This document shows, piece by piece, positions 49,604 to 58,734 of a stretch of 64,000 bases of DNA (position 1 is the first letter of the stretch; each line of letters begins with the position of its first letter). The stretch lies in the IMG/VR virus record IMGVR_UViG_3300045988_044066. One strand, written 5' to 3'. The notes under the pieces are model-generated. The model made no database searches. It was not told the origin of the DNA and saw only the letters and a list, made by a program, of their open reading frames with translations. The DNA comes from a virus. The position numbers and the translations under genes were made by a program.

Positions 49604-50027
49604 AAATGTTTAATTGACCTATCCCGATTGCATCGGAGTTAATCCCTATGGTAAGGAACTACTCCTGTTGGATACCACGTGTAGCTATCAGCTGACACTT
49701 TGAAATACCAACGAACTGCTTTCTTAATTAACTTAAATAGTCTCATAATACATCAGTTTTAGTCAATAAATAAATAATCTAGCTTATCACTAAACAGCAA
49801 CCAAAGCAAAATACTAGCAACAACAATACTCCAGTGAATGGATTAAATTGATGTTGAGCTATACAAGCAACTGTTCCTATAACAGAACCAATTACTAACA
49901 ATACTCCAATAATCTTACTCATAAATGTATCTGATTTTAAATTAATAATCTAAATAAACCACTCTATCTTCACAGACTGAGTGGTTAAACTCGTTCTTTG
50001 ACATCATGTACAATCTTAGTACATATG

Positions 50028-50394: not shown

Positions 50395-50424
50395 AACTAC
50401 TCTATTCTCACGAACTGAGTAGTT
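50395..50424. repeat. Conserved-loop hairpin, copy C: stem aactactc/gagtagtt, loop tattctcacgaact
   Basis: Same loop core TATTCTC(T/A)CGAAC as hairpins at 53443-53470 and 53718-53755, with an unrelated stem sequence. Confidence 0.5.
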
Positions 50425-50479
50425 GTCCATATTTGCTATTATGGGATTATCAGCATCCTCTCTTGGATGCCACGGGGAG

Positions 50480-50515
50480 TATGGGTAGCCAGACTCGAAC
50501 TGGCGACAACTAGGT
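50480..50515 (-). tRNA. tRNA-Pro(TGG) 3' half (A38, anticodon stem 3' strand, variable loop, T-arm, acceptor 3' strand)
   Basis: A-CCTAG-TTGTC-GCCAG-TTCGAGT-CTGGC-TACCCAT-A. Pairs perfectly with the 5' half at 51319-51355. Confidence 0.6.
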
Positions 50516-51318
50516 CTAGGAACTAATGCTTTAGAGATTTGTCCAATCGTTAGAGTTAATAGATTTAATATCTGACATCCTAGTGGGAAGATTGTAACTT
50601 TTACACCATCTTCTAACCGCGTTATCTGATACACCAAAATCTTTACCGATTTGAACGAATGATTTTGTTCTAATTAATTCTTTCAGCTCCTCTTTCGAGG
50701 GCCATTCAGTCTTTCTAGAAGACAATCTATAACACTCTACACACATAATACCGTCCTTAGATACTGGATTGCGGTGACATTTAACACAGATGTGTTCTTT
50801 GTGTGCAATTGTGCTCTCTGTAATACTAGAACTACATTCCTCGGAACAGAAAGAAGTTTTGACCTTATGTCCGAGCATATTCTCTAATAGATAATCTTCT
50901 GCTTTATTGTAAACATTACTGCCATTGGTAGGAGGTTTAAGTCGTAGCGTCTTACTAGTTGAACATTCAGACACCGGAATTAAATATACCTTACCATCGT
51001 AAGCTGTTGCAAAATAATCTATTTGAGACTCATCATATCTCCTACGGACTGTTTCTTTAGTATTAGTAGTCTGCGTAACTGTACTAAAATGAAACGCATC
51101 TAAATCTCTAATTCCATTCTTAATAGGATTACTTGAAGACTTGCATTGAACTCTAAGAAGTTCATCACCCACATCTACTATTATGTCATATCTGGAGTTG
51201 TCTCCATAGGGAATTGAGCAATCAAATCCCATCGACATGAATCCTATAAGACAGGTTAATTCCGTAATATTACCTTTAGATTTTGTATAATCCATATGTT
51301 ATACTCTAAAGTTTAGTT
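50516..51318 (-). mobile_element. ~803-nt insertion (putative group I intron or homing-endonuclease insertion) in the anticodon loop of tRNA-Pro(TGG), between G37 and A38 (ambiguous by 1 nt)
   Basis: Joining the 5' and 3' halves gives a canonical 73-nt cloverleaf. The insertion RNA ends in ...GUUCCUAG (terminal G) and carries ORF 50531-51295 on the same strand. Confidence 0.5.
50531..51295 (-). CDS. endonuclease-like ORF inside the tRNA-Pro insertion (N-terminal PD-(D/E)xK-like motif, CxxC..CxxC zinc ribbon, C-terminal helix-turn-helix)
   Basis: RYDIIVDVGDELLRVQCK (D...E.K motif), HICVKCH...CVECY, and C-terminus ELKELIRTKSFVQIGKDFGVSDNAVRRWCKSY (HTH). Confidence 0.5.
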   Translation of the reverse strand: MDYTKSKGNITELTCLIGFMSMGFDCSIPYGDNSRYDIIVDVGDELLRVQCKSSSNPIKNGIRDLDAFHFSTVTQTTNTKETVRRRYDESQIDYFATAYDGKVYLIPVSECSTSKTLRLKPPTNGSNVYNKAEDYLLENMLGHKVKTSFCSEECSSSITESTIAHKEHICVKCHRNPVSKDGIMCVECYRLSSRKTEWPSKEELKELIRTKSFVQIGKDFGVSDNAVRRWCKSYNLPTRMSDIKSINSNDWTNL

Positions 51319-51355
51319 CCCAAACCTAGCATTCTACCTACTGAATTACACCCAT
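51319..51355 (-). tRNA. tRNA-Pro(TGG) 5' half (acceptor 5' strand, D-arm, anticodon stem 5' strand and loop TTTGGG)
   Basis: ATGGGTG-TA-ATTC-AGTAGGTA-GAAT-G-CTAGG-TTTGGG. Confidence 0.6.
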
Positions 51356-51457
51356 AACTACAGAAGTCTCTTAGTTTAATTAAAATCATAAAATATGAAA
51401 CACTTTCTTTCATGCTGTAAGACTTCTTATTCAAAGCTATTGAAAATTGTTGTATTG

Positions 51458-51530
51458 TGGGTGTACTTGGACTTGAACCAAGGACTTACACGTTATCAGC
51501 GTGTTACTCTACCACCTGAGTTATACACCC
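51458..51530 (-). tRNA. tRNA-Ile(GAT)
   Basis: Acceptor GGGTGTA/TACACCC. Anticodon arm ACACG-CTGATAA-CGTGT. T-arm CTTGG-TTCAAGT-CCAAG. Confidence 0.7.
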
Positions 51531-51632
51531 ATCATCAGAAGACAATAGATTCATTTACTTATGCCAACATACAGGAAATTGCTGTTTGTCTTCTTAGCAT
51601 TCTGAAAATGCAAATGTACAAATGACTGTAGT

Positions 51633-51701
51633 TGCGGTCGGACGATTCGAACGTCGTCTCTGGGTTATGAGCCCAGTAAGCTACCATTGCTCCACCACCG
51701 C
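51633..51701 (-). tRNA. tRNA-Met(CAT), initiator-like (GGG/CCC run in the anticodon stem); short, with one mismatch in the acceptor stem
   Basis: Anticodon arm CTGGG-CTCATAA-CCCAG has G29-C41, G30-C40, G31-C39. T-loop TTCGAAT. Confidence 0.5.
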
Positions 51702-51704
51702 AAG

Positions 51705-51776
51705 TGCCCCATGTTGGACTCGAACCAACGCCATACAAGTTTAGAATTTGCTCTTCTACCACTGAAGTAATGGGGC
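51705..51776 (-). tRNA. amber-suppressor tRNA-Sup(CTA)
   Basis: 72-nt cloverleaf: GCCCCAT-TA-CTTC-AGTGGTA-GAAG-A-GCAAA-TTCTAAA-CTTGT-ATGGC-GTTGG-TTCGAGT-CCAAC-ATGGGGC-A. Anticodon 5'-CUA-3' reads UAG. Confidence 0.6.
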
Positions 51777-51813
51777 GACAGAGGGTTTTACGAGATTACC
51801 CACAACTCATCAA

Positions 51814-52131
51814 CTATTCGATAATTTGATTCCACTGTTCAAGTGTAAGTTCCTTGACTACTATGCCATTTAGTTCAAATGGAGTATATTGGTTTCCATT
51901 CTCTTCTACAAGGATTAACCATTCGTAGCCACGTTGCTTGCTATGAGTTCTAATAATCTCCTTAATGGTTTCGATGCCAAAAGGAGTTAGAATCTTCTGC
52001 CCTTCTCTGTAAAGATACCTCTTGTTGAGGTCTTTTAAATCCTCTAATGTGGTTAAATGAGGATTAGGGTTCTTAGTGATAACTACATGGTCATCTCCTA
52101 CACTAACATAATAATCTCGATTGTATATCAT
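51814..52131 (-). CDS. hypothetical protein
   Basis: 105-aa ORF. Confidence 0.4.
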   Translation of the reverse strand: MIYNRDYYVSVGDDHVVITKNPNPHLTTLEDLKDLNKRYLYREGQKILTPFGIETIKEIIRTHSKQRGYEWLILVEENGNQYTPFELNGIVVKELTLEQWNQIIE

Positions 52132-52430
52132 TCTCTTACTAATTTAAGTTTCTTGAACATGCGACCGTCATCTTGTAATGCGATTGCTGTTAATTGATTG
52201 CCAAGGTCTGGTTCATAGAATGAAGAATAGTCCTTATTAACTAAGTCCAGTCTTACTTTCCATTTGTCCAAGTCAGCATATAAGTAGATTAAGTAGTTAT
52301 TATTCCAATCCTGCTTAGGATGTTCTAATAACCACTGCGCTACTGCATGACCTCCTTGTACACAACCATAAACTGCATCAAGCTTCTGGTCTATCAGCAC
52401 ATACAATCTCTTCATCAGAATATGTATCAA
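52128..52430 (-). CDS. hypothetical protein
   Basis: 100-aa ORF. Confidence 0.4.
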   Translation of the reverse strand: MIHILMKRLYVLIDQKLDAVYGCVQGGHAVAQWLLEHPKQDWNNNYLIYLYADLDKWKVRLDLVNKDYSSFYEPDLGNQLTAIALQDDGRMFKKLKLVRE

Positions 52431-52716
52431 TCAGTGAATCAACTCTTTCTCGGAAATACTTCTCTCCACTATACATCTTAGAATAACCACACCAACCTTG
52501 AGTTTCAAGTGATTTCCATTCTTTGATAACTTTAGCTAGATACTCATTCATAGCTTCTCCGATTAGTTTATGCTTTAATATGTAATAAGCTACATACATT
52601 GCATGTAATCTTCCTCTGTTGTAATAAACTGATGAGCAGTCATTAATATTCTTAGCTGCTTTCTGTGCTTTTACTAAATTCGCGATTTCTTGTTTAAATT
52701 GTTTAATTGTTGCCAT
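52378..52716 (-). CDS. hypothetical protein
   Basis: 112-aa ORF. Confidence 0.4.
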   Translation of the reverse strand: MATIKQFKQEIANLVKAQKAAKNINDCSSVYYNRGRLHAMYVAYYILKHKLIGEAMNEYLAKVIKEWKSLETQGWCGYSKMYSGEKYFRERVDSLIDTYSDEEIVCADRPEA

Positions 52717-52805
52717 GATAGTTAATTGTTAATAAGTTAATAAATAAATTGCCTTAATTAATAATCAACTATCTTATGGTGGCTTGTAAGTAATCTACCG
52801 CATAA

Positions 52806-53102
52806 TCATTTCCCTTTAATTTGTTTACACATGTTAATAAACTCATCATCCGATTCACATATAATCGGATTCGTTTCCTTGAGATACATCTCCAGATAGG
52901 CTTCTTTAGACAAATCGTCCACGTCATCCGGATACACACCATGTACATCATATGACATATGAGAACCCCAGCAACTAAGCCAATCAGCATCCTCAAATGT
53001 AGTACATATACACACACTTAACCCAGCATCCTCTAGTTTCTTACGAAGTTCTGGAGTATTCTTCTTAATAAGACAGTGTTCACTCATGGATTTAATACAC
53101 AT
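52806..53102 (-). CDS. hypothetical protein
   Basis: 98-aa ORF. Confidence 0.4.
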   Translation of the reverse strand: MCIKSMSEHCLIKKNTPELRKKLEDAGLSVCICTTFEDADWLSCWGSHMSYDVHGVYPDDVDDLSKEAYLEMYLKETNPIICESDDEFINMCKQIKGK

Positions 53103-53422
53103 AAACCACCTTTCTCGGAATCTCTAAGCACATACTTAATACCTGGAATACCAGGACCTGATACCTTATAAATGGTTAGTTCGTTAATAAATTCATACTG
53201 CACTCTGTTGATTTTATAATCTCCATTAGTAGCAGCAGACTCATTAATTGATGCTTTACTTGTGGTTGCAAATAATGCCAAGAAGGTAAATACTCCACAT
53301 AATCCACCAATAACACCTGCCTTAAATGATGTCTCTTTCATAATCTCATCTATTATTAATAATGAGCGGGATAACAGAATTGAACTGTCATCTTCAGCTT
53401 GGAAGGCTGTTATAATAACCAT
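53084..53422 (-). CDS. hypothetical protein (C-terminal hydrophobic segment)
   Basis: 112-aa ORF. Confidence 0.4.
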   Translation of the reverse strand: MVIITAFQAEDDSSILLSRSLLIIDEIMKETSFKAGVIGGLCGVFTFLALFATTSKASINESAATNGDYKINRVQYEFINELTIYKVSGPGIPGIKYVLRDSEKGGLCVLNP

Positions 53423-53442
53423 TATACGAATCCCGCAGTTTA

Positions 53443-53470
53443 CTTCTACTATTCTCTCGAACCATAGAAG
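53443..53470. repeat. Conserved-loop hairpin, copy A: stem cttcta/tagaag, loop ctattctctcgaacca
   Basis: Loop core TATTCTCTCGAAC shared with copies B and C. The stem differs. Confidence 0.5.
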
Positions 53471-53523
53471 GGTTTGTCGAGTTTGACCTCAACAGATATT
53501 GTATTTAATTATCGCAGTGTGAG

Positions 53524-53607
53524 TGGGCCCGGGAGGACTCGAACCTCCAGTCCAATTAAGGAGTAGATTTACAGTCTACGCGGCTACCAATTACCGGTTA
53601 CGTGCCC
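53524..53607 (-). tRNA. tRNA-Tyr(GTA), class II
   Basis: Acceptor GGGCACG/CGGGCCC (one A-G mismatch). Anticodon arm GTAGA-CTGTAAA-TCTAC. Long variable arm. T-arm GGAGG-TTCGAGT-CCTCC. Confidence 0.6.
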
Positions 53608-53717
53608 GAATCACACAATCCATATTAACTGTGAATTGTGAGTGCAAAGGTAATGAATCTTTCCCACATGTAAAAGTTAATATGTATTAAATACGATAGA
53701 AGTTTGCTCGGTATTAA

Positions 53718-53755
53718 ACTAAGCTCACATATTCTCTCGAACCGATGAGCTTAGT
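53718..53755. repeat. Conserved-loop hairpin, copy B: 10-bp stem actaagctca/tgagcttagt, loop catattctctcgaaccga
   Basis: Loop core TATTCTCTCGAAC. The stem is unrelated to copies A and C. Confidence 0.5.
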
Positions 53756-54094: not shown

Positions 54095-55789
54095 TTAGAC
54101 CTTCACAGGCTTCTTCTGCACGCTTGCATTCTTCTTGACAACATCCTTCTCTAGAATCATCATATTAAGCAACTCTTGATTCATAGCATGCTTAAAGATG
54201 TCTCTAGTGGTTTTAGGTACCTGGAACCTCTTCTCTCCAGTAATAAATGAGGATGTTGAATTATTAAGTCCATTTACTAAGAAGCAATTTGACACTCCTG
54301 GAACCAAAGCCACATTAGGTCTTCCCTTATATGCTAAAGGAACTCTCCAAATGATAACTTTGAATGCTCTTACAAATTCCTTACTGAAATTTGCTTTAAG
54401 CAGTCTTTGCTTAAATTCCACGAATGCTTGGTTGTTCAACTTGGTAAAATATGTATGGTTAGTAATTACCACACAACCTCTAGGGAACTCTCCTTCATCC
54501 ACACCATAATCTTCTTTCATTTTACACAGCATTTCTGCTATATTAATAATAGAAGGATTCTGGCATAATGCTTCTTCTTTGTCAGATTTCCATTTCTCAA
54601 TGACATTCTGACCTTTGAACTTACGTAGAACCATGTTATCTTCTAACACGGCATAGGAGTTTTTGAATATTGTAGGAAGTAATTCAGAATGATATAAAGC
54701 ATATGCTTTACCCAAACTGTAAGCAGATGTTTCGCTATTCTCTATCTCACCATTAGCAGAATGACTTATATCTCTTACTACCAACAACGGAGCTACTCTA
54801 TTGCGTTTAGCATTATCAACAAATACATTGAAACTTGCATTAATAGAAGTTTCCATAAATTCTGGAATCTCTTCGGCAATTTTATCCAATCCGTATGGTT
54901 TGAACAGAGTATGTAGAAATCCGCTATTAGAGGGCTTCTTACGGTTCTTCAACCAGTTCTGATACTTCTCTTTAAGACCTTGATGTTTGAGGAATTTAGA
55001 GCCTACTAGCTGTGCCAGTGCCTTTCCAGTAACAGTGTCAAAATCGATTTCCAAGAATTTCTTTTGACTGATTAACTGCTGCCATTGGGCTGCTTTCCCG
55101 CTATTCTTCATCTTCCTATATTTACGATAGGTTGAATAGTCTCCTTCATCCTTAGGTTTACCATAAAGGCCTTCCGCCAAGAATTTGGCTACTGTATTAC
55201 GTGCTTTTGCCTCATCTGTCTTACATGCAACACTGGAACGAACACGAGGAAGATACTTCTTTACTAAATCACATGTCTGACCGTTGGCAAGACCTGCGAA
55301 TATGACTTTCTTGAAGAAGTCCCAATCCAATCTGTGCTTAAAGCCATGGAGTTGAACATCTAAAGCCATCATAGTAATGAAATCTTTCCAGCATCCAGCT
55401 GCTGCAAAATAAGCAATGTTGGCATGGAATGTGGGTTTGTGATAGATTGCCAACCACAACATTCTCATTATACCTTCATTCTTCAAACCTTCTCCTTGCT
55501 GTGTATCAAGTTGTATAACTCCTTCCGGGGTAATTATTCTACATTTACGAGTTATCATTCTCGTATATGCAGTAAACTTAGTACATAGTAATGGATTAGC
55601 TTTCCATAAAGGATACATATCTTTAGCCACTTGCACGTAGGTACGTGGCTGAAGACATTTCTTAAGATTAACAAACTGGTCTATGAATAACTGATTATTA
55701 TCCACAAACTTAGGTTTATTCTCATCCCGCCTTTGACGTGCGGCATTAGGGTAAGGCCTCCTTGGCCTTTGTGCTCCTTTCATTTCCAT
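54095..55789 (-). CDS. large protein with C-terminal vWA-like domain (MIDAS-like DISHS) and N-terminal alpha-helical region; possible Ro60/TROVE (Rsr)-like RNA-binding protein
   Basis: LLVVRDISHSANGE contains a DxSxS MIDAS-like motif. GEGLKNEGIMRMLWLAIY resembles the Ro60 ...EPMLFALAIA segment. 564 aa, next to a tRNA island. Confidence 0.4.
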   Translation of the reverse strand: MEMKGAQRPRRPYPNAARQRRDENKPKFVDNNQLFIDQFVNLKKCLQPRTYVQVAKDMYPLWKANPLLCTKFTAYTRMITRKCRIITPEGVIQLDTQQGEGLKNEGIMRMLWLAIYHKPTFHANIAYFAAAGCWKDFITMMALDVQLHGFKHRLDWDFFKKVIFAGLANGQTCDLVKKYLPRVRSSVACKTDEAKARNTVAKFLAEGLYGKPKDEGDYSTYRKYRKMKNSGKAAQWQQLISQKKFLEIDFDTVTGKALAQLVGSKFLKHQGLKEKYQNWLKNRKKPSNSGFLHTLFKPYGLDKIAEEIPEFMETSINASFNVFVDNAKRNRVAPLLVVRDISHSANGEIENSETSAYSLGKAYALYHSELLPTIFKNSYAVLEDNMVLRKFKGQNVIEKWKSDKEEALCQNPSIINIAEMLCKMKEDYGVDEGEFPRGCVVITNHTYFTKLNNQAFVEFKQRLLKANFSKEFVRAFKVIIWRVPLAYKGRPNVALVPGVSNCFLVNGLNNSTSSFITGEKRFQVPKTTRDIFKHAMNQELLNMMILEKDVVKKNASVQKKPVKV

Positions 55790-56169
55790 CTCTTTGTTTA
55801 AATTTATTGTTATGAGAGTCTTTCTTTATTCTAAACAATAAACAAGCGGCATTACGGCAATCGGACATACGTTAACCCGCTCGCCACTTACAGACCGTAA
55901 TGCACACTTGACCAGGCAGGAAAGAGGTTTGCTTGGTGACCTATCTGCATGCTGATTATATAATGCAGACCGTGTAGATTCTCTCTTACACAATATCTAT
56001 AGTAGATTTGCACTACTGTTTTCTGATGCTTAATCAGGTGAACTCCTACTGTTCGAATAGATACAGGTTTCAACTCTTTGATATAGCCTTTAAGTCATAG
56101 ACATACTCCGGAATATGTCTACTGGTTCTTCAGACCAAGTTTTGCTACCACTATTCGTCAATAGTGGAT

Positions 56170-58034: not shown

Positions 58035-58587
58035 GTTAATAATAGTGGACCTAGGCGGAGTCGAACCGCCGTCCAAACAACCCTCATTAATAAGATTACG
58101 TGTGTCTCTATTTTATTACATCAGCTGTTGAGTTCAGCATGTAGGTAGTTTTACTAGTCTTATCTTGGAACCAGGTAATTAGGCTGCAATAGCCAAACCA
58201 GTACACCAAAAGCTAATTTACAAACTACCAAACTTAAAGGTTCAGAAGCTGACGCTTCCAAACCTGGGCTGACCGAAGTCGCTCTTCCACCACTCCATTT
58301 ACGTTGGAGAACGTTTCTATTTGTAACCCATAGATAGGTAGTGGAGATTTCAGCTTTACTAACCTTTGGCTTTCAAGTTAAGTGGGCTGCTCTATACGCT
58401 TCTTCCCACACCTCTTCTGTTTCTAGGTCTCTCCAATTAACCCGACTTAGAGCTAAATTAATAGATAAGCCAGCAGCTTAGGCTGCCATTCTTACTTCAG
58501 TGTTTCCACTTAAATTGCTGTATCATTATTAAAGAGTTGGTACGAACTCTACACGTCTTACTAACTTGTAATCGCCTGTCAAAACCA
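58035..58587 (-). ncRNA. ssrA: tmRNA (ssrA-like); unusually long at ~553 nt; predicted tag ...GNTEVRMAA*
   Basis: 5' end GGGCCUAGAUUUGGUUUUGACAGGCG resembles the consensus GGGGCUGAUUCUGGAUUCGACGGG. 3' end ...UUUGGAC-GGCGG-UUCGACU-CCGCC-UAGGUCC-A. Acceptor GGGCCUA/UAGGUCC. In-frame AUG-GCA-GCC-UAA ends ~120 nt from the 5' end. Confidence 0.55.
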
Positions 58588-58734
58588 AATCTAGGCCCAT
58601 AGAACGGCATGATTATCCTCTCATGCCAGGAGGTCTCTCAAACCTGAACAAAAAAGCTATCAGTATCTTCCTGTGCTACATTGAGTAGCGTACCCATTAC
58701 AGACTTAATAGCCTAGGAGTTATTTTTATTCCAT

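What the first reader, a model, noticed from the sequence alone, without database searches (positions are those of the whole stretch)
50395..53755. Three hairpins with a conserved loop (TATTCTC(T/A)CGAAC) and unrelated, perfectly complementary stems, all next to tRNA genes
Three hairpins share an almost identical 13-nt loop core but have completely different stem sequences:
- copy C, 50395-50424: stem aactactc/gagtagtt;
- copy A, 53443-53470: stem cttcta/tagaag;
- copy B, 53718-53755: stem actaagctca/tgagcttagt.

Stems that differ in sequence but each pair perfectly are the classic signature of selection on structure. All three lie in non-coding tRNA-island DNA: after the tRNA-Pro 3' half and before tRNA-Cys, and flanking tRNA-Tyr. 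On the transcribed (minus) strand the loop reads GGUUCG(A/U)GAGAAUA. This resembles a T-loop fused to extra bases. Candidate roles are a processing or termination signal, or a protein-binding site for tRNA-cluster transcripts.
Basis: seen in the sequence. Interest (0 to 1): 0.7.

Follow-up and report, generated by a model that had tools for sequence, protein, structure and literature searches.

The report
Conserved-cap RNA hairpin of gut phages

Summary
On the transcribed (minus) strand each element folds as a variable stem P1, an N·A mismatch, an invariant G·U wobble, a 3-bp helix P2 (usually UUC/GAA) and a GNGA tetraloop.

They yielded more than 250 different hairpins with unrelated stems, 94-95% pairing, many G·U pairs on one strand only, and covariation in both helices.

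The motif is sense-oriented and intergenic. It occurs in at least three unrelated phage types: a large myovirus (this window), Mu-like temperate phages and a crAss-like phage. In bacterial bins it appears almost only in Bacteroidales.

About 20-40% of copies lie 2-13 nt upstream of a tRNA or tRNA-like gene. Of the remaining copies, 61-75% are followed at once by a U-run.

No Rfam family and no paper I could find describes it. Best reading (confidence about 0.4): a terminator-like boundary hairpin whose invariant cap is a recognition site for an unknown factor. The function is untested.

The parts
53443..53470 (-). Hairpin A. P1 CUUCUAU/GUAGAAG (7 bp, closing U·G). Apical module GGUUC-GAGA-GAAUA at 53450-53463. 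It ends 6 nt (UAAACU) upstream of the tRNA-Gly 5' end (53436).
   Evidence: 39.2 bits, E = 1.5e-8; -10.7 kcal/mol, z = -4.2. The orthologous copy in L430 has GCGA instead of GAGA with the same stem.
53718..53755 (-). Hairpin B. P1 ACUAAGCUCAU/GUGAGCUUAGU (11 bp), then a C·U mismatch. Apical module GGUUC-GAGA-GAAUA at 53730-53743. It lies 101 nt downstream of tRNA-Leu(CAA) and 110 nt upstream of tRNA-Tyr.
   Evidence: 27.8 bits, E = 3.2e-5; -17.7 kcal/mol, z = -4.9. The L108 ortholog has A at module position 1.
50395..50424 (-). Hairpin C. P1 AACUACUC/GAGUAGUU (8 bp). Apical module AGUUC-GUGA-GAAUA at 50403-50416. It lies about 40 nt downstream of the tRNA-Pro 3' half and 140 nt upstream of tRNA-Cys.
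   Evidence: 40.0 bits, E = 8.8e-9; -12.5 kcal/mol, z = -3.7. The L043 ortholog has C at module position 1.
49957..49986 (-). Hairpin D, new and not in the finding. P1 AACCACUC/GAGUGGUU. Apical module AGUCU-GUGA-AGAUA at 49965-49978. It is a paralogue of C with one compensatory change in P1 and two in P2. It lies 40 nt downstream of tRNA-Lys and 34 nt upstream of the ATG (49922) of a small ORF.
   Evidence: 17.8 bits, E = 0.027; -14.8 kcal/mol, z = -4.1. UCU/AGA is the second commonest P2 in the family.

Best explanation
**What it is (shown).** A structured RNA motif read from the strand that carries the genes. From the base upward it has:
- a stem P1 of 5-11 bp of any sequence, closed by C-G or U·G;
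- an N·A mismatch;
- an invariant G·U wobble;
- a 3-bp helix P2 (UUC/GAA in most copies, but it covaries);
- a GNGA tetraloop whose second base is free.

Hundreds of independent copies exist in phages and prophage-like DNA of gut and rumen Bacteroidales.

**How it most likely works (inferred).** It is a transcript-boundary hairpin of the intrinsic-terminator or attenuator kind.
- In most copies a U-run follows directly. RNA polymerase would then stop or pause there, and only read-through transcripts would reach the small gene or tRNA placed 2-40 nt downstream.
- Where the hairpin abuts a tRNA (copy A), RNase P cleavage at the tRNA 5' end would leave it as the 3'-terminal stem-loop of the upstream RNA, with a 2-7 nt tail. 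Such an end resists 3' exonucleases.

The invariant cap (G·U plus 3 bp plus GNGA) is not needed for a plain terminator. I therefore take it to be the docking surface for a trans-acting factor that sets how the boundary behaves. The motif spans unrelated phage lineages, so that factor is probably a host (Bacteroidales) protein or the transcription complex itself. The factor is unidentified.
For: Structure:
- Stem lengths next to the exact core are bimodal. Chance hits peak at 1-3 pairs and real ones at 7-9.
- There are 114 distinct inner stems. 94.2% of cells pair, against 65.6% in shuffles and 36-50% when the register is slid. 435 cells are changed on both sides.
- P2 covaries without circularity. 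48 of 53 non-UUC/GAA frames form all three pairs; about 5% would by chance (counts).
- Replacing GNGA by GNAA, or G·U by A-U, C-G or U-A, gives 0 hits against 196.
- Reversed-sequence control: 0 hits against 374.
- 16% of stem pairs are G·U, so the opposite strand cannot fold equally well.

Context:
- 116 copies lie between co-directional genes, 15 in divergent leaders, 9 at convergent 3' ends, and only 4 antisense to both neighbours. L186 was checked by hand as a convergent junction followed by UUAUUUUU.
- 61% (set 1) and 75% (independent UCU set) of non-tRNA copies have at least 4 U in the 6 nt after the stem. Background is 9%.
- tRNA 5' ends lie 2-13 nt downstream in 20 of 37, 47 of 206 and 24 of 64 cases. 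No hairpin lies closer than 19 nt to the 3' end of an upstream tRNA.
- Downstream genes are unrelated small proteins, 50 clusters among 69. The element is therefore generic expression punctuation, not a gene-specific regulator.

Spread:
- It occurs in a large myovirus, Mu-like phages next to the S24 repressor and transposase and a crAss-like phage.
- Genuine copies in bacterial bins are almost all in Bacteroidales MAGs.
Against: - The four copies in this window have only 3-4 U spanning the stem end, and a standard terminator scan does not flag them. A has no U-run at all before tRNA-Gly.
- A plain terminator does not explain an invariant G·U and GNGA.
- Fifteen copies sit in 5' leaders between divergent genes, where there is no upstream RNA to end. 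Those would have to act as attenuators.
- No factor has been identified, and no transcript-end data exist.
- The sets were gathered by exact-core searches capped at 120 loci, and gene calls were crude (longest ORFs). Percentages are therefore approximate.
- I could not test whether host chromosomal genes use the motif.
Confidence: 0.4

Rival explanations
1. The hairpin itself is the product. A small RNA of roughly 40-80 nt has its 3' end set by the U-run or by RNase P at the adjacent tRNA. Its conserved cap binds and titrates, or is carried by, a host protein. It would act as a decoy or sponge, or as the 3' 'handle' of phage small RNAs whose 5' parts vary.
For: - The geometry gives a hairpin with a short 3' tail in both contexts.
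- In one family a U/G-rich tract, the hairpin and a U-run travel together as a roughly 70-nt cassette placed in front of different genes. That layout resembles the U-rich / hairpin / U-tail modules of bacterial small RNAs (established knowledge).
- The motif seems confined to phage or mobile DNA, as expected for a counter-host device.
- tRNA arrays are highly expressed units.
Against: - No target is known, and there is no conserved 5' region.
- Bacteroidetes lack Hfq and ProQ (established knowledge), so the handle protein would be new.
- Nothing here distinguishes a released RNA from a cis-acting element.
Confidence: 0.15
2. It is purely a processing and stability element. An endonuclease (RNase E/G, RNase Y, RNase III or a phage enzyme) cuts the AU-rich stretch just 3' of the hairpin. 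Polycistronic tRNA/mRNA precursors are thereby split, and each upstream piece keeps a protective 3' stem-loop, as at the RNase III sites of T7. No termination is involved.
For: - Copies are intergenic, in sense orientation, 20-40 nt upstream of start codons and 2-7 nt from RNase P sites.
- A U-rich then A-rich sequence follows the stem.
- The window copies are weak terminators.
- Several copies can occur in one array, for example seven in 2.2 kb in L274.
Against: - The helix (12-16 bp including mismatches) is short for RNase III.
- The distance from the cap to the tRNA 5' end spans 9-13 nt rather than one value, so no ruler is evident (my count).
- The strong U-run is more typical of termination.
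- Copies in 5' leaders have nothing upstream to protect.
Confidence: 0.15
3. It is a processive antitermination site, like lambda nut boxB or HK022 put. The cap recruits a factor, or touches RNA polymerase directly, so that the polymerase then ignores downstream terminators and structured tRNAs.
For: - The tetraloop has a GNRA fold, as boxB does.
- In Mu-like phages copies sit right after the operator region and again after the first early gene. That is the same layout as nutL and nutR.
- Copies are promoter-proximal in 15 divergent regions.
Against: - Most copies look like terminators themselves.
- Copies occur at convergent 3' ends.
- Up to seven occur per array, although one per operon would suffice.
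- No boxA-like second conserved element was found.
- N-type systems are lineage-specific, whereas this cap is identical across unrelated phages.
Confidence: 0.12
4. It is a DNA-level element: a promoter (host sigma factor or a phage polymerase, possibly hairpin-type as in phage N4), a recombination or homing site, or a cassette boundary that promotes module shuffling, like the PeSL elements of T4-type phages.
For: - Two indel breakpoints among close relatives fall 19 and 24 nt from hairpins D and B.
- A hairpin-containing cassette recurs in front of different genes.
- The distance from the hairpin to the tRNA start (2-7 nt) resembles the promoter-to-start geometry of N4 (from memory).
Against: - P2 changes sequence while keeping its pairing. 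A DNA-binding protein or sigma factor would not tolerate that.
- G·T pairs on the sense strand become A·C mismatches on the template strand.
- No TAnnTTTG box lies at a fixed distance; there is only a broad two-fold enrichment within 25 nt.
- Stems are not conserved, unlike in PeSLs (PMC4122927).
Confidence: 0.05
5. It mimics a tRNA T-arm or the sarcin-ricin loop of 23S rRNA, and so engages tRNA- or ribosome-binding enzymes or toxins.
For: - It shares GGUUCGA with the T-arm consensus.
- It can be lined up position by position with AGUACGAGAGGACC of the sarcin-ricin loop, with 8-10 identities (my comparison from memory).
Against: - The A58-equivalent and A2660-equivalent position is the free N.
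- There is no G53-C61 pair.
- UUC/GAA form Watson-Crick pairs that covary.
- The bulged-G register is excluded. Sliding the pairing by one column drops pairing from 94% to 36-44%.
Confidence: 0.03

Closest known systems
Intrinsic (Rho-independent) terminators and leader attenuators
   Same: A sense-strand intergenic hairpin followed by a U-run in 61-75% of non-tRNA copies. It is found after genes, between genes and in 5' leaders.
   Different: Ordinary terminators have no conserved loop or cap. Here G·U, P2 and GNGA are essentially invariant. Copies that abut tRNAs, and the four copies in this window, have weak or absent U-runs.
Lambda-type nut boxB hairpins (N protein) and HK022 put RNAs
   Same: A phage RNA hairpin whose apex has a GNRA fold and is read sequence-specifically. 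It is placed early in operons, next to the immunity region in the Mu-like phages.
   Different: boxB is a pentaloop on a 5-bp stem, has a boxA partner, is not followed by a U-run, occurs once or twice per genome and is lineage-specific.
Repeated intercistronic hairpins of T7 (RNase III sites) and T4 (C(UUCG)G hairpins)
   Same: Many copies per phage lie between genes, share sequence features, and are thought to leave protective 3' stem-loops on processed RNAs.
   Different: The sequence and size differ. The T7 sites are about 20 bp with an internal loop. The conserved part of the T4 hairpins is only an extra-stable tetraloop.
Theta (minimal HDV-like) ribozymes next to tRNAs in gut phages (bioRxiv 10.1101/2023.06.13.544163)
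   Same: The same niche: small structured RNAs in tRNA arrays of gut Caudoviricetes, in sense orientation, some isolated in non-coding regions.
   Different: Theta ribozymes start within ±5 nt of the tRNA 3' end and form a nested double pseudoknot with a catalytic C. This motif is a plain two-helix hairpin. It is never within 19 nt of a tRNA 3' end and typically lies 2-7 nt before a tRNA 5' end.
PeSL promoter/stem-loop cassettes of T4-type phages (PMC2839356, PMC4122927)
   Same: Repeated regulatory stem-loops flank small accessory ORFs in variable regions. Some breakpoints and a recurring cassette are seen here too.
   Different: PeSLs have conserved stems and a sigma-70 early promoter. Here the stems vary, the cap is conserved and no fixed promoter is present.
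Iron-responsive element (a conceptual analogue only)
   Same: A conserved apical loop on a short upper helix sits above a stem of free sequence. The same tag is used at different positions in many unrelated transcripts and is read by one protein.
   Different: It is eukaryotic and has a different sequence. No binding protein is known here.

Membership tests
Any Rfam 15 family | Match to a curated covariance model | tested here: not met
   There was no hit on any hairpin at gathering score, at E <= 10 in 3.8 kb or at E <= 10 in 351 nt. My own model scores the hairpins at 28-40 bits.
tRNA T-arm / T-loop mimic | 7-nt loop U54-U55-C56-R57-A58 closed by G53-C61 | tested here: not met
   The A58-equivalent is the free N (A 29, U 90, C 29, G 27). 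The C61-equivalent is G. UUC pairs with GAA and covaries.
Sarcin-ricin loop (bulged-G motif) | Invariant GAGA, a bulged G giving an asymmetric register, and a sheared A·G pair | tested here: not met
   The second loop base is free. The symmetric register pairs 94-95% of cells, against 36-44% when slid by one column. The position of the A·G pair is a covarying Watson-Crick pair.
Intrinsic terminator | A stable hairpin followed directly by a U-run, at the 3' side of a transcription unit | tested here: inconclusive
   In the family, 61% and 75% of non-tRNA copies have at least 4 U in 6 nt, against 9% background. Nine copies lie at convergent ends. In this window there are only 3-4 U and the scan flags none of them. 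Actual termination was not measured.
Lambda nut (boxA + boxB) | A boxA sequence a few nt 5' of a 5-bp hairpin with a GNRA-like pentaloop, plus an N-type protein | tested here: not met
   It has a tetraloop, not a pentaloop. No second conserved element was found within 50-70 nt on either side. An N-like protein is not testable with these tools.
Theta / HDV-like ribozyme | A nested double pseudoknot with a catalytic C in J4/2, and a cleavage site at the tRNA 3' end | tested here: not met
   The smallest distance from an upstream tRNA 3' end is 19 nt. There is no HDV-family Rfam hit. Hand threading of L004 and L273 spacers found no P1 partner (inference). Self-cleavage is not testable here.
PeSL cassette | A conserved stem sequence plus a sigma-70-type early promoter in one unit | tested here: not met
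   There are 114 distinct inner stems. No promoter box lies at a fixed distance. Sigma-70-like sites are not enriched in the window: 62 found against 64 in shuffles.
N4-type hairpin promoter | A template-strand DNA hairpin with a 3-nt loop and conserved stem bases | tested here: not met
   G·T pairs are on the sense strand. The loop module is 14 nt. P2 covaries.
RNase III processing site (T7 type) | About two turns of double-stranded RNA with an internal loop at the cleavage site | tested here: inconclusive
   The total helix is 12-16 bp including mismatches. That is shorter than the classical sites. Cleavage is not testable here.

The most novel reading that the evidence does not exclude
The invariant cap (G·U, 3 bp, GNGA) is a pan-phage RNA tag read by one so far unknown Bacteroidales factor. 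This is a phylum without Hfq or ProQ. The tag would then define a regulon-like set of phage early transcripts and tRNA precursors. Alternatively the hairpins, released by termination or by RNase P, are decoy RNAs that neutralise a host RNA-binding defence or RNase. Either reading would be a new RNA-protein axis in gut phage-host biology, not just a terminator variant.
Probability: 0.2. Interest if true: 0.85.

Novelty: new variant of a known kind. Interest (0 to 1): 0.62.

Why it matters
Gut Bacteroidales phages, crAss-like ones included, are among the most abundant viruses in humans, yet almost nothing is known about how their transcripts are punctuated or controlled. Their hosts use unusual promoters, lack Shine-Dalgarno pairing and lack the classical RNA chaperones.

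- A short motif with hundreds of independent, strongly covarying copies and a strictly invariant G·U/GNGA cap gives a clean handle. It can be synthesised, mutated at two defined features and used as bait to find the factor.
- It can be added to annotation pipelines to mark transcript boundaries.
- It offers a host-clade marker for uncultured phage contigs.
- It adds a second class of tRNA-flanking RNA element in gut phages. Theta ribozymes sit at the tRNA 3' side and this hairpin sits at the 5' side. That bears on how phage tRNA arrays, suppressor tRNAs included, are expressed.

Tried and rejected
- **Rfam** at three sensitivities: nothing on the hairpins.
- **Literature.** Six full-text searches found no description. 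The theta-ribozyme preprint and the catalogue of 10,006 viral structured RNAs do not mention such a hairpin.
- **A hairpin at the very 5' end of transcripts, behind a Bacteroides promoter.** I saw TAnnTTTG-like boxes by eye. Statistics show no fixed distance, only a broad two-fold excess within 25 nt in T-rich sequence. In the GTGTAC-stem family the upstream conserved tract does not fit the -33/-7 spacing.
- **The cap as a promoter or sigma site.** Rejected because P2 covaries.
- **T-loop and sarcin-ricin mimicry.** Rejected by the free N and by the pairing register.
- **Resemblance to 16S rRNA helix 12.** I considered this from memory and dropped it. The rRNA helix pairs differently, and I could not test it.
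- **HDV-like ribozyme with the hairpin as P4.** No P1/P2 partners were found in the L004 and L273 spacers, and too few nucleotides lie 3' of the hairpin.
- **A ruler from the cap to the tRNA 5' end.** Distances are 9-13 nt, no tighter than the spacer itself.
- **A shared neighbouring protein that could be the factor.** The commonest neighbours are S24 repressors, Mu-type transposase and ATPase, Bro-N/KilA-N proteins and integrases. These are lysogeny-module genes, and none is common to all lineages.
- **Named cultured phages carrying the motif.** Bacteroides phage BKO1-TP4 and a Bohxovirus region have none. BLAST cannot find a 15-nt core.
- **The adjacent 564-aa 'RNA-binding protein' ORF.** It has no Pfam or PDB sequence match.

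Full report
**1. The observation**

The window has 29 ARAGORN tRNAs, all but one spurious overlap on the minus strand, and nearly all long ORFs are on the minus strand too. The 13-mer TATTCTCWCGAAC occurs exactly three times, always on the same strand. The three extra hits allowed by two mismatches are ordinary chance.

On the minus strand the sequence reads stem-GGUUCG(A/U)GAGAAUA-stem. RNAfold pairs G·U, U-A, U-A and C-G inside the supposed loop and leaves a GAGA or GUGA tetraloop. All four copies are more stable on the minus strand, with z-scores of -3.7 to -4.9.

**2. A family, not three copies**

I scanned viral contigs for the exact core four times.

- Next to the core, the length of the directly flanking complementary stem is bimodal. 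Chance hits peak at 1-3 pairs and real ones at 7-9.
- I collected 175 unique hairpins. An alignment of 114 with distinct inner stems (A1) pairs in 94.2% of cells, against 65.6% in shuffles and 36-50% when the register is slid. 435 cells are changed on both sides.
- 16% of stem pairs are G·U. The opposite strand would carry A·C mismatches at those positions.
- The closing pair is C-G (58) or U·G (50).

A covariance model built from A1 found a fourth copy in the window at 49957-49986. Its apical UUC/GAA has become UCU/AGA.

Loosening the pattern showed that UCU/AGA is a large sub-family and that P2 also occurs as UGC/GCA, CCC/GGG, UUU/AAA, CUU/AAG, UCC/GGA and others. In a test that did not require P2 to pair, 48 of 53 non-canonical frames formed all three pairs.

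Three features do not vary:
- the G·U wobble below P2 (A-U, C-G or U-A in its place: 0 hits, against 196);
- the G at loop position 3 (GNAA: 0 hits);
- largely, the A opposite position 1.

Reversed sequences give 0 hits against 374. The free N changes even between orthologous copies: window A has GAGA and L430 has GCGA on the same stem.

**3. Where it sits**

With a crude gene call, the hairpins fall as follows:

| Position | Copies |
|---|---|
| Between co-directional genes | 116 |
| Divergent leaders | 15 |
| Convergent 3' ends | 9 |
| Antisense to both neighbours | 4 |

- *tRNA adjacency.* Twenty of 37 hairpins with a downstream same-strand tRNA lie 2-13 nt (mostly 2-7) before its 5' end. 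None is closer than 19 nt to the 3' end of an upstream tRNA. A more permissive detector raises the tRNA or tRNA-like cases to 47 of 206 (control 10). It includes odd tRNA-like genes that ARAGORN misses.
- *U-run.* The other copies usually precede an ATG by 20-40 nt. 61% of them have at least 4 U in the 6 nt after the stem, against 9% background.
- *Replication.* The independently gathered UCU/AGA set gives the same picture. It has 64 unique hairpins, of which 24 lie 2-11 nt before a tRNA-like gene, and 75% of the rest carry a U-run.
- *Downstream genes.* They are unrelated small proteins.
- *Neighbours.* They are often lysogeny-module genes: S24 repressor, Mu-type transposase and ATPase, Bro-N, integrase. 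In the Mu-like group one hairpin follows an operator-like palindrome beside the repressor gene, and a second follows the first early gene.

**4. Who carries it**

- The window is a large myovirus-like phage. Its 670-aa ORF has relatives in TsarBomba and Vi1-like phages.
- The L033 group is related to Mu-like Bacteroides and Porphyromonas phages.
- L008 is related to crAss-like Suoliviridae.
- In a scan of one genome per species, about 100 of 120 hits were chance. The roughly 15 genuine hairpins were almost all in Prevotella, Parabacteroides, Bacteroides, Muribaculaceae or other Bacteroidales bins from gut or rumen.
- Two annotated phages I checked lack it.

**5. What it is not**

- It matches no Rfam family.
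- It is not a T-loop or a sarcin-ricin mimic (free N, pairing register, covarying P2).
- It is not a theta/HDV-like ribozyme (wrong side of the tRNA, no pseudoknot partners).
- It is not a promoter (P2 covaries; no fixed -7 box).
- It is not a PeSL (stems vary).

I found no paper describing it.

**6. Mechanism**

Orientation, intergenic position, the U-run and the convergent-end cases fit an intrinsic-terminator or attenuator type of boundary hairpin. The tight spacing before tRNAs means RNase P would leave the hairpin at the 3' end of the upstream RNA.

That account does not explain the invariant cap. I infer that the cap is a recognition surface for a factor common to Bacteroidales hosts. 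This step is inference only.

Rivals that fit much of the same evidence are a released small RNA or decoy, a pure endonucleolytic processing site, and a nut/put-like antitermination site.

The window's own copies are weak terminators. For these four copies a processing or RNase P-coupled role is at least as likely as termination.

**7. Limits**

- The sets were ascertained by exact cores under a hit cap.
- Many loci are close relatives, although stems were de-duplicated.
- Gene calls are longest-ORF heuristics.
- Host assignment rests on MAG labels and on the relatives of two lineages.
- No expression data were available.

Noticed in passing
window 50468-51354 (-): tRNA-Pro(UGG) is split right after its anticodon loop by an insertion of about 820 nt. 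The insertion encodes a PD-(D/E)XK endonuclease (ORF 50531-51295, Pfam PF11645). Close relatives (L043, L108, L069) have an intact tRNA-Pro of a different allele at the same place. No Rfam intron family matches at E <= 1, so this is either an unclassified tRNA intron or a disrupted gene.
   Followed up: partly
window 56060-56167 (-) and ORF 54095-55789 (-): There is a full-length RAGATH-34 RNA (120.9 bits against a gathering score of 60.7). It lies directly upstream of a 564-aa ORF whose only match is PHROG 850 'RNA-binding protein'. The ORF has no Pfam or PDB sequence hit. This may be an RNA-protein pair, 340 nt from hairpin B's tRNA cluster.
   Followed up: partly
window 58043-58598 (-): Rfam calls a tmRNA (83.7 bits) that spans 556 nt for a 374-position model, so it carries large insertions or is otherwise unusual. 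ARAGORN did not call it.
   Followed up: no
window 51704-51776 (-): A tRNA with anticodon CUA (amber-suppressor type, labelled Pyl by ARAGORN) lies 1 nt from a tRNA-Met. This suggests TAG recoding in part of this phage.
   Followed up: no
window 38252-39319 (-): A short (355 aa) adenylosuccinate-synthetase-like ORF matches PF00709. PHROG 1211 names the family '2-aminooxy adenylosuccinate synthetase'. Its size and phage context resemble PurZ, the enzyme that makes 2-aminoadenine (Z) DNA.
   Followed up: no
L282 1990-2520; also L278, L295, L241, L243: These loci carry arrays of unusual tRNA-like genes with a clear acceptor stem and T-arm but long internal inserts, which ARAGORN does not call. 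Each is preceded by a G/U-rich tract, a motif hairpin and a U-run.
   Followed up: partly
L033 6290-6312, L105 530-552, L307, L331, L368, L419, L427, L463: An operator-like palindrome GCTACAAA(T/G)GTAGC lies 3-4 nt upstream of the hairpin in divergent regions next to S24-type repressor genes. Its opposite strand reads as a perfect Bacteroides -7 box, TACATTTG.
   Followed up: partly
L087, L095, L372, L374, L415, L467, L486 and others: A cassette of about 70 nt, GUGUUUUAUUUUGUGUUUGUG...-hairpin(GUGUAC stem)-UUUUUAAUAA, recurs in front of different tRNA-like genes and after different upstream sequences. This looks like a duplicated or shuffled regulatory cassette.
   Followed up: partly
window 49938 and 53694: Indel or replacement breakpoints between the window and its close relatives fall 19 nt 3' of hairpin D and 24 nt 3' of hairpin B. 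The 157-nt stretch 49782-49937, which includes the start of the small ORF after hairpin D, is missing in L036, L042 and L430.
   Followed up: partly
window 43715-43818: ARAGORN predicts a tRNA-Arg on the + strand that overlaps a tRNA-Ser on the - strand. The + strand call is almost certainly an artefact of the Ser gene's complement.
   Followed up: no
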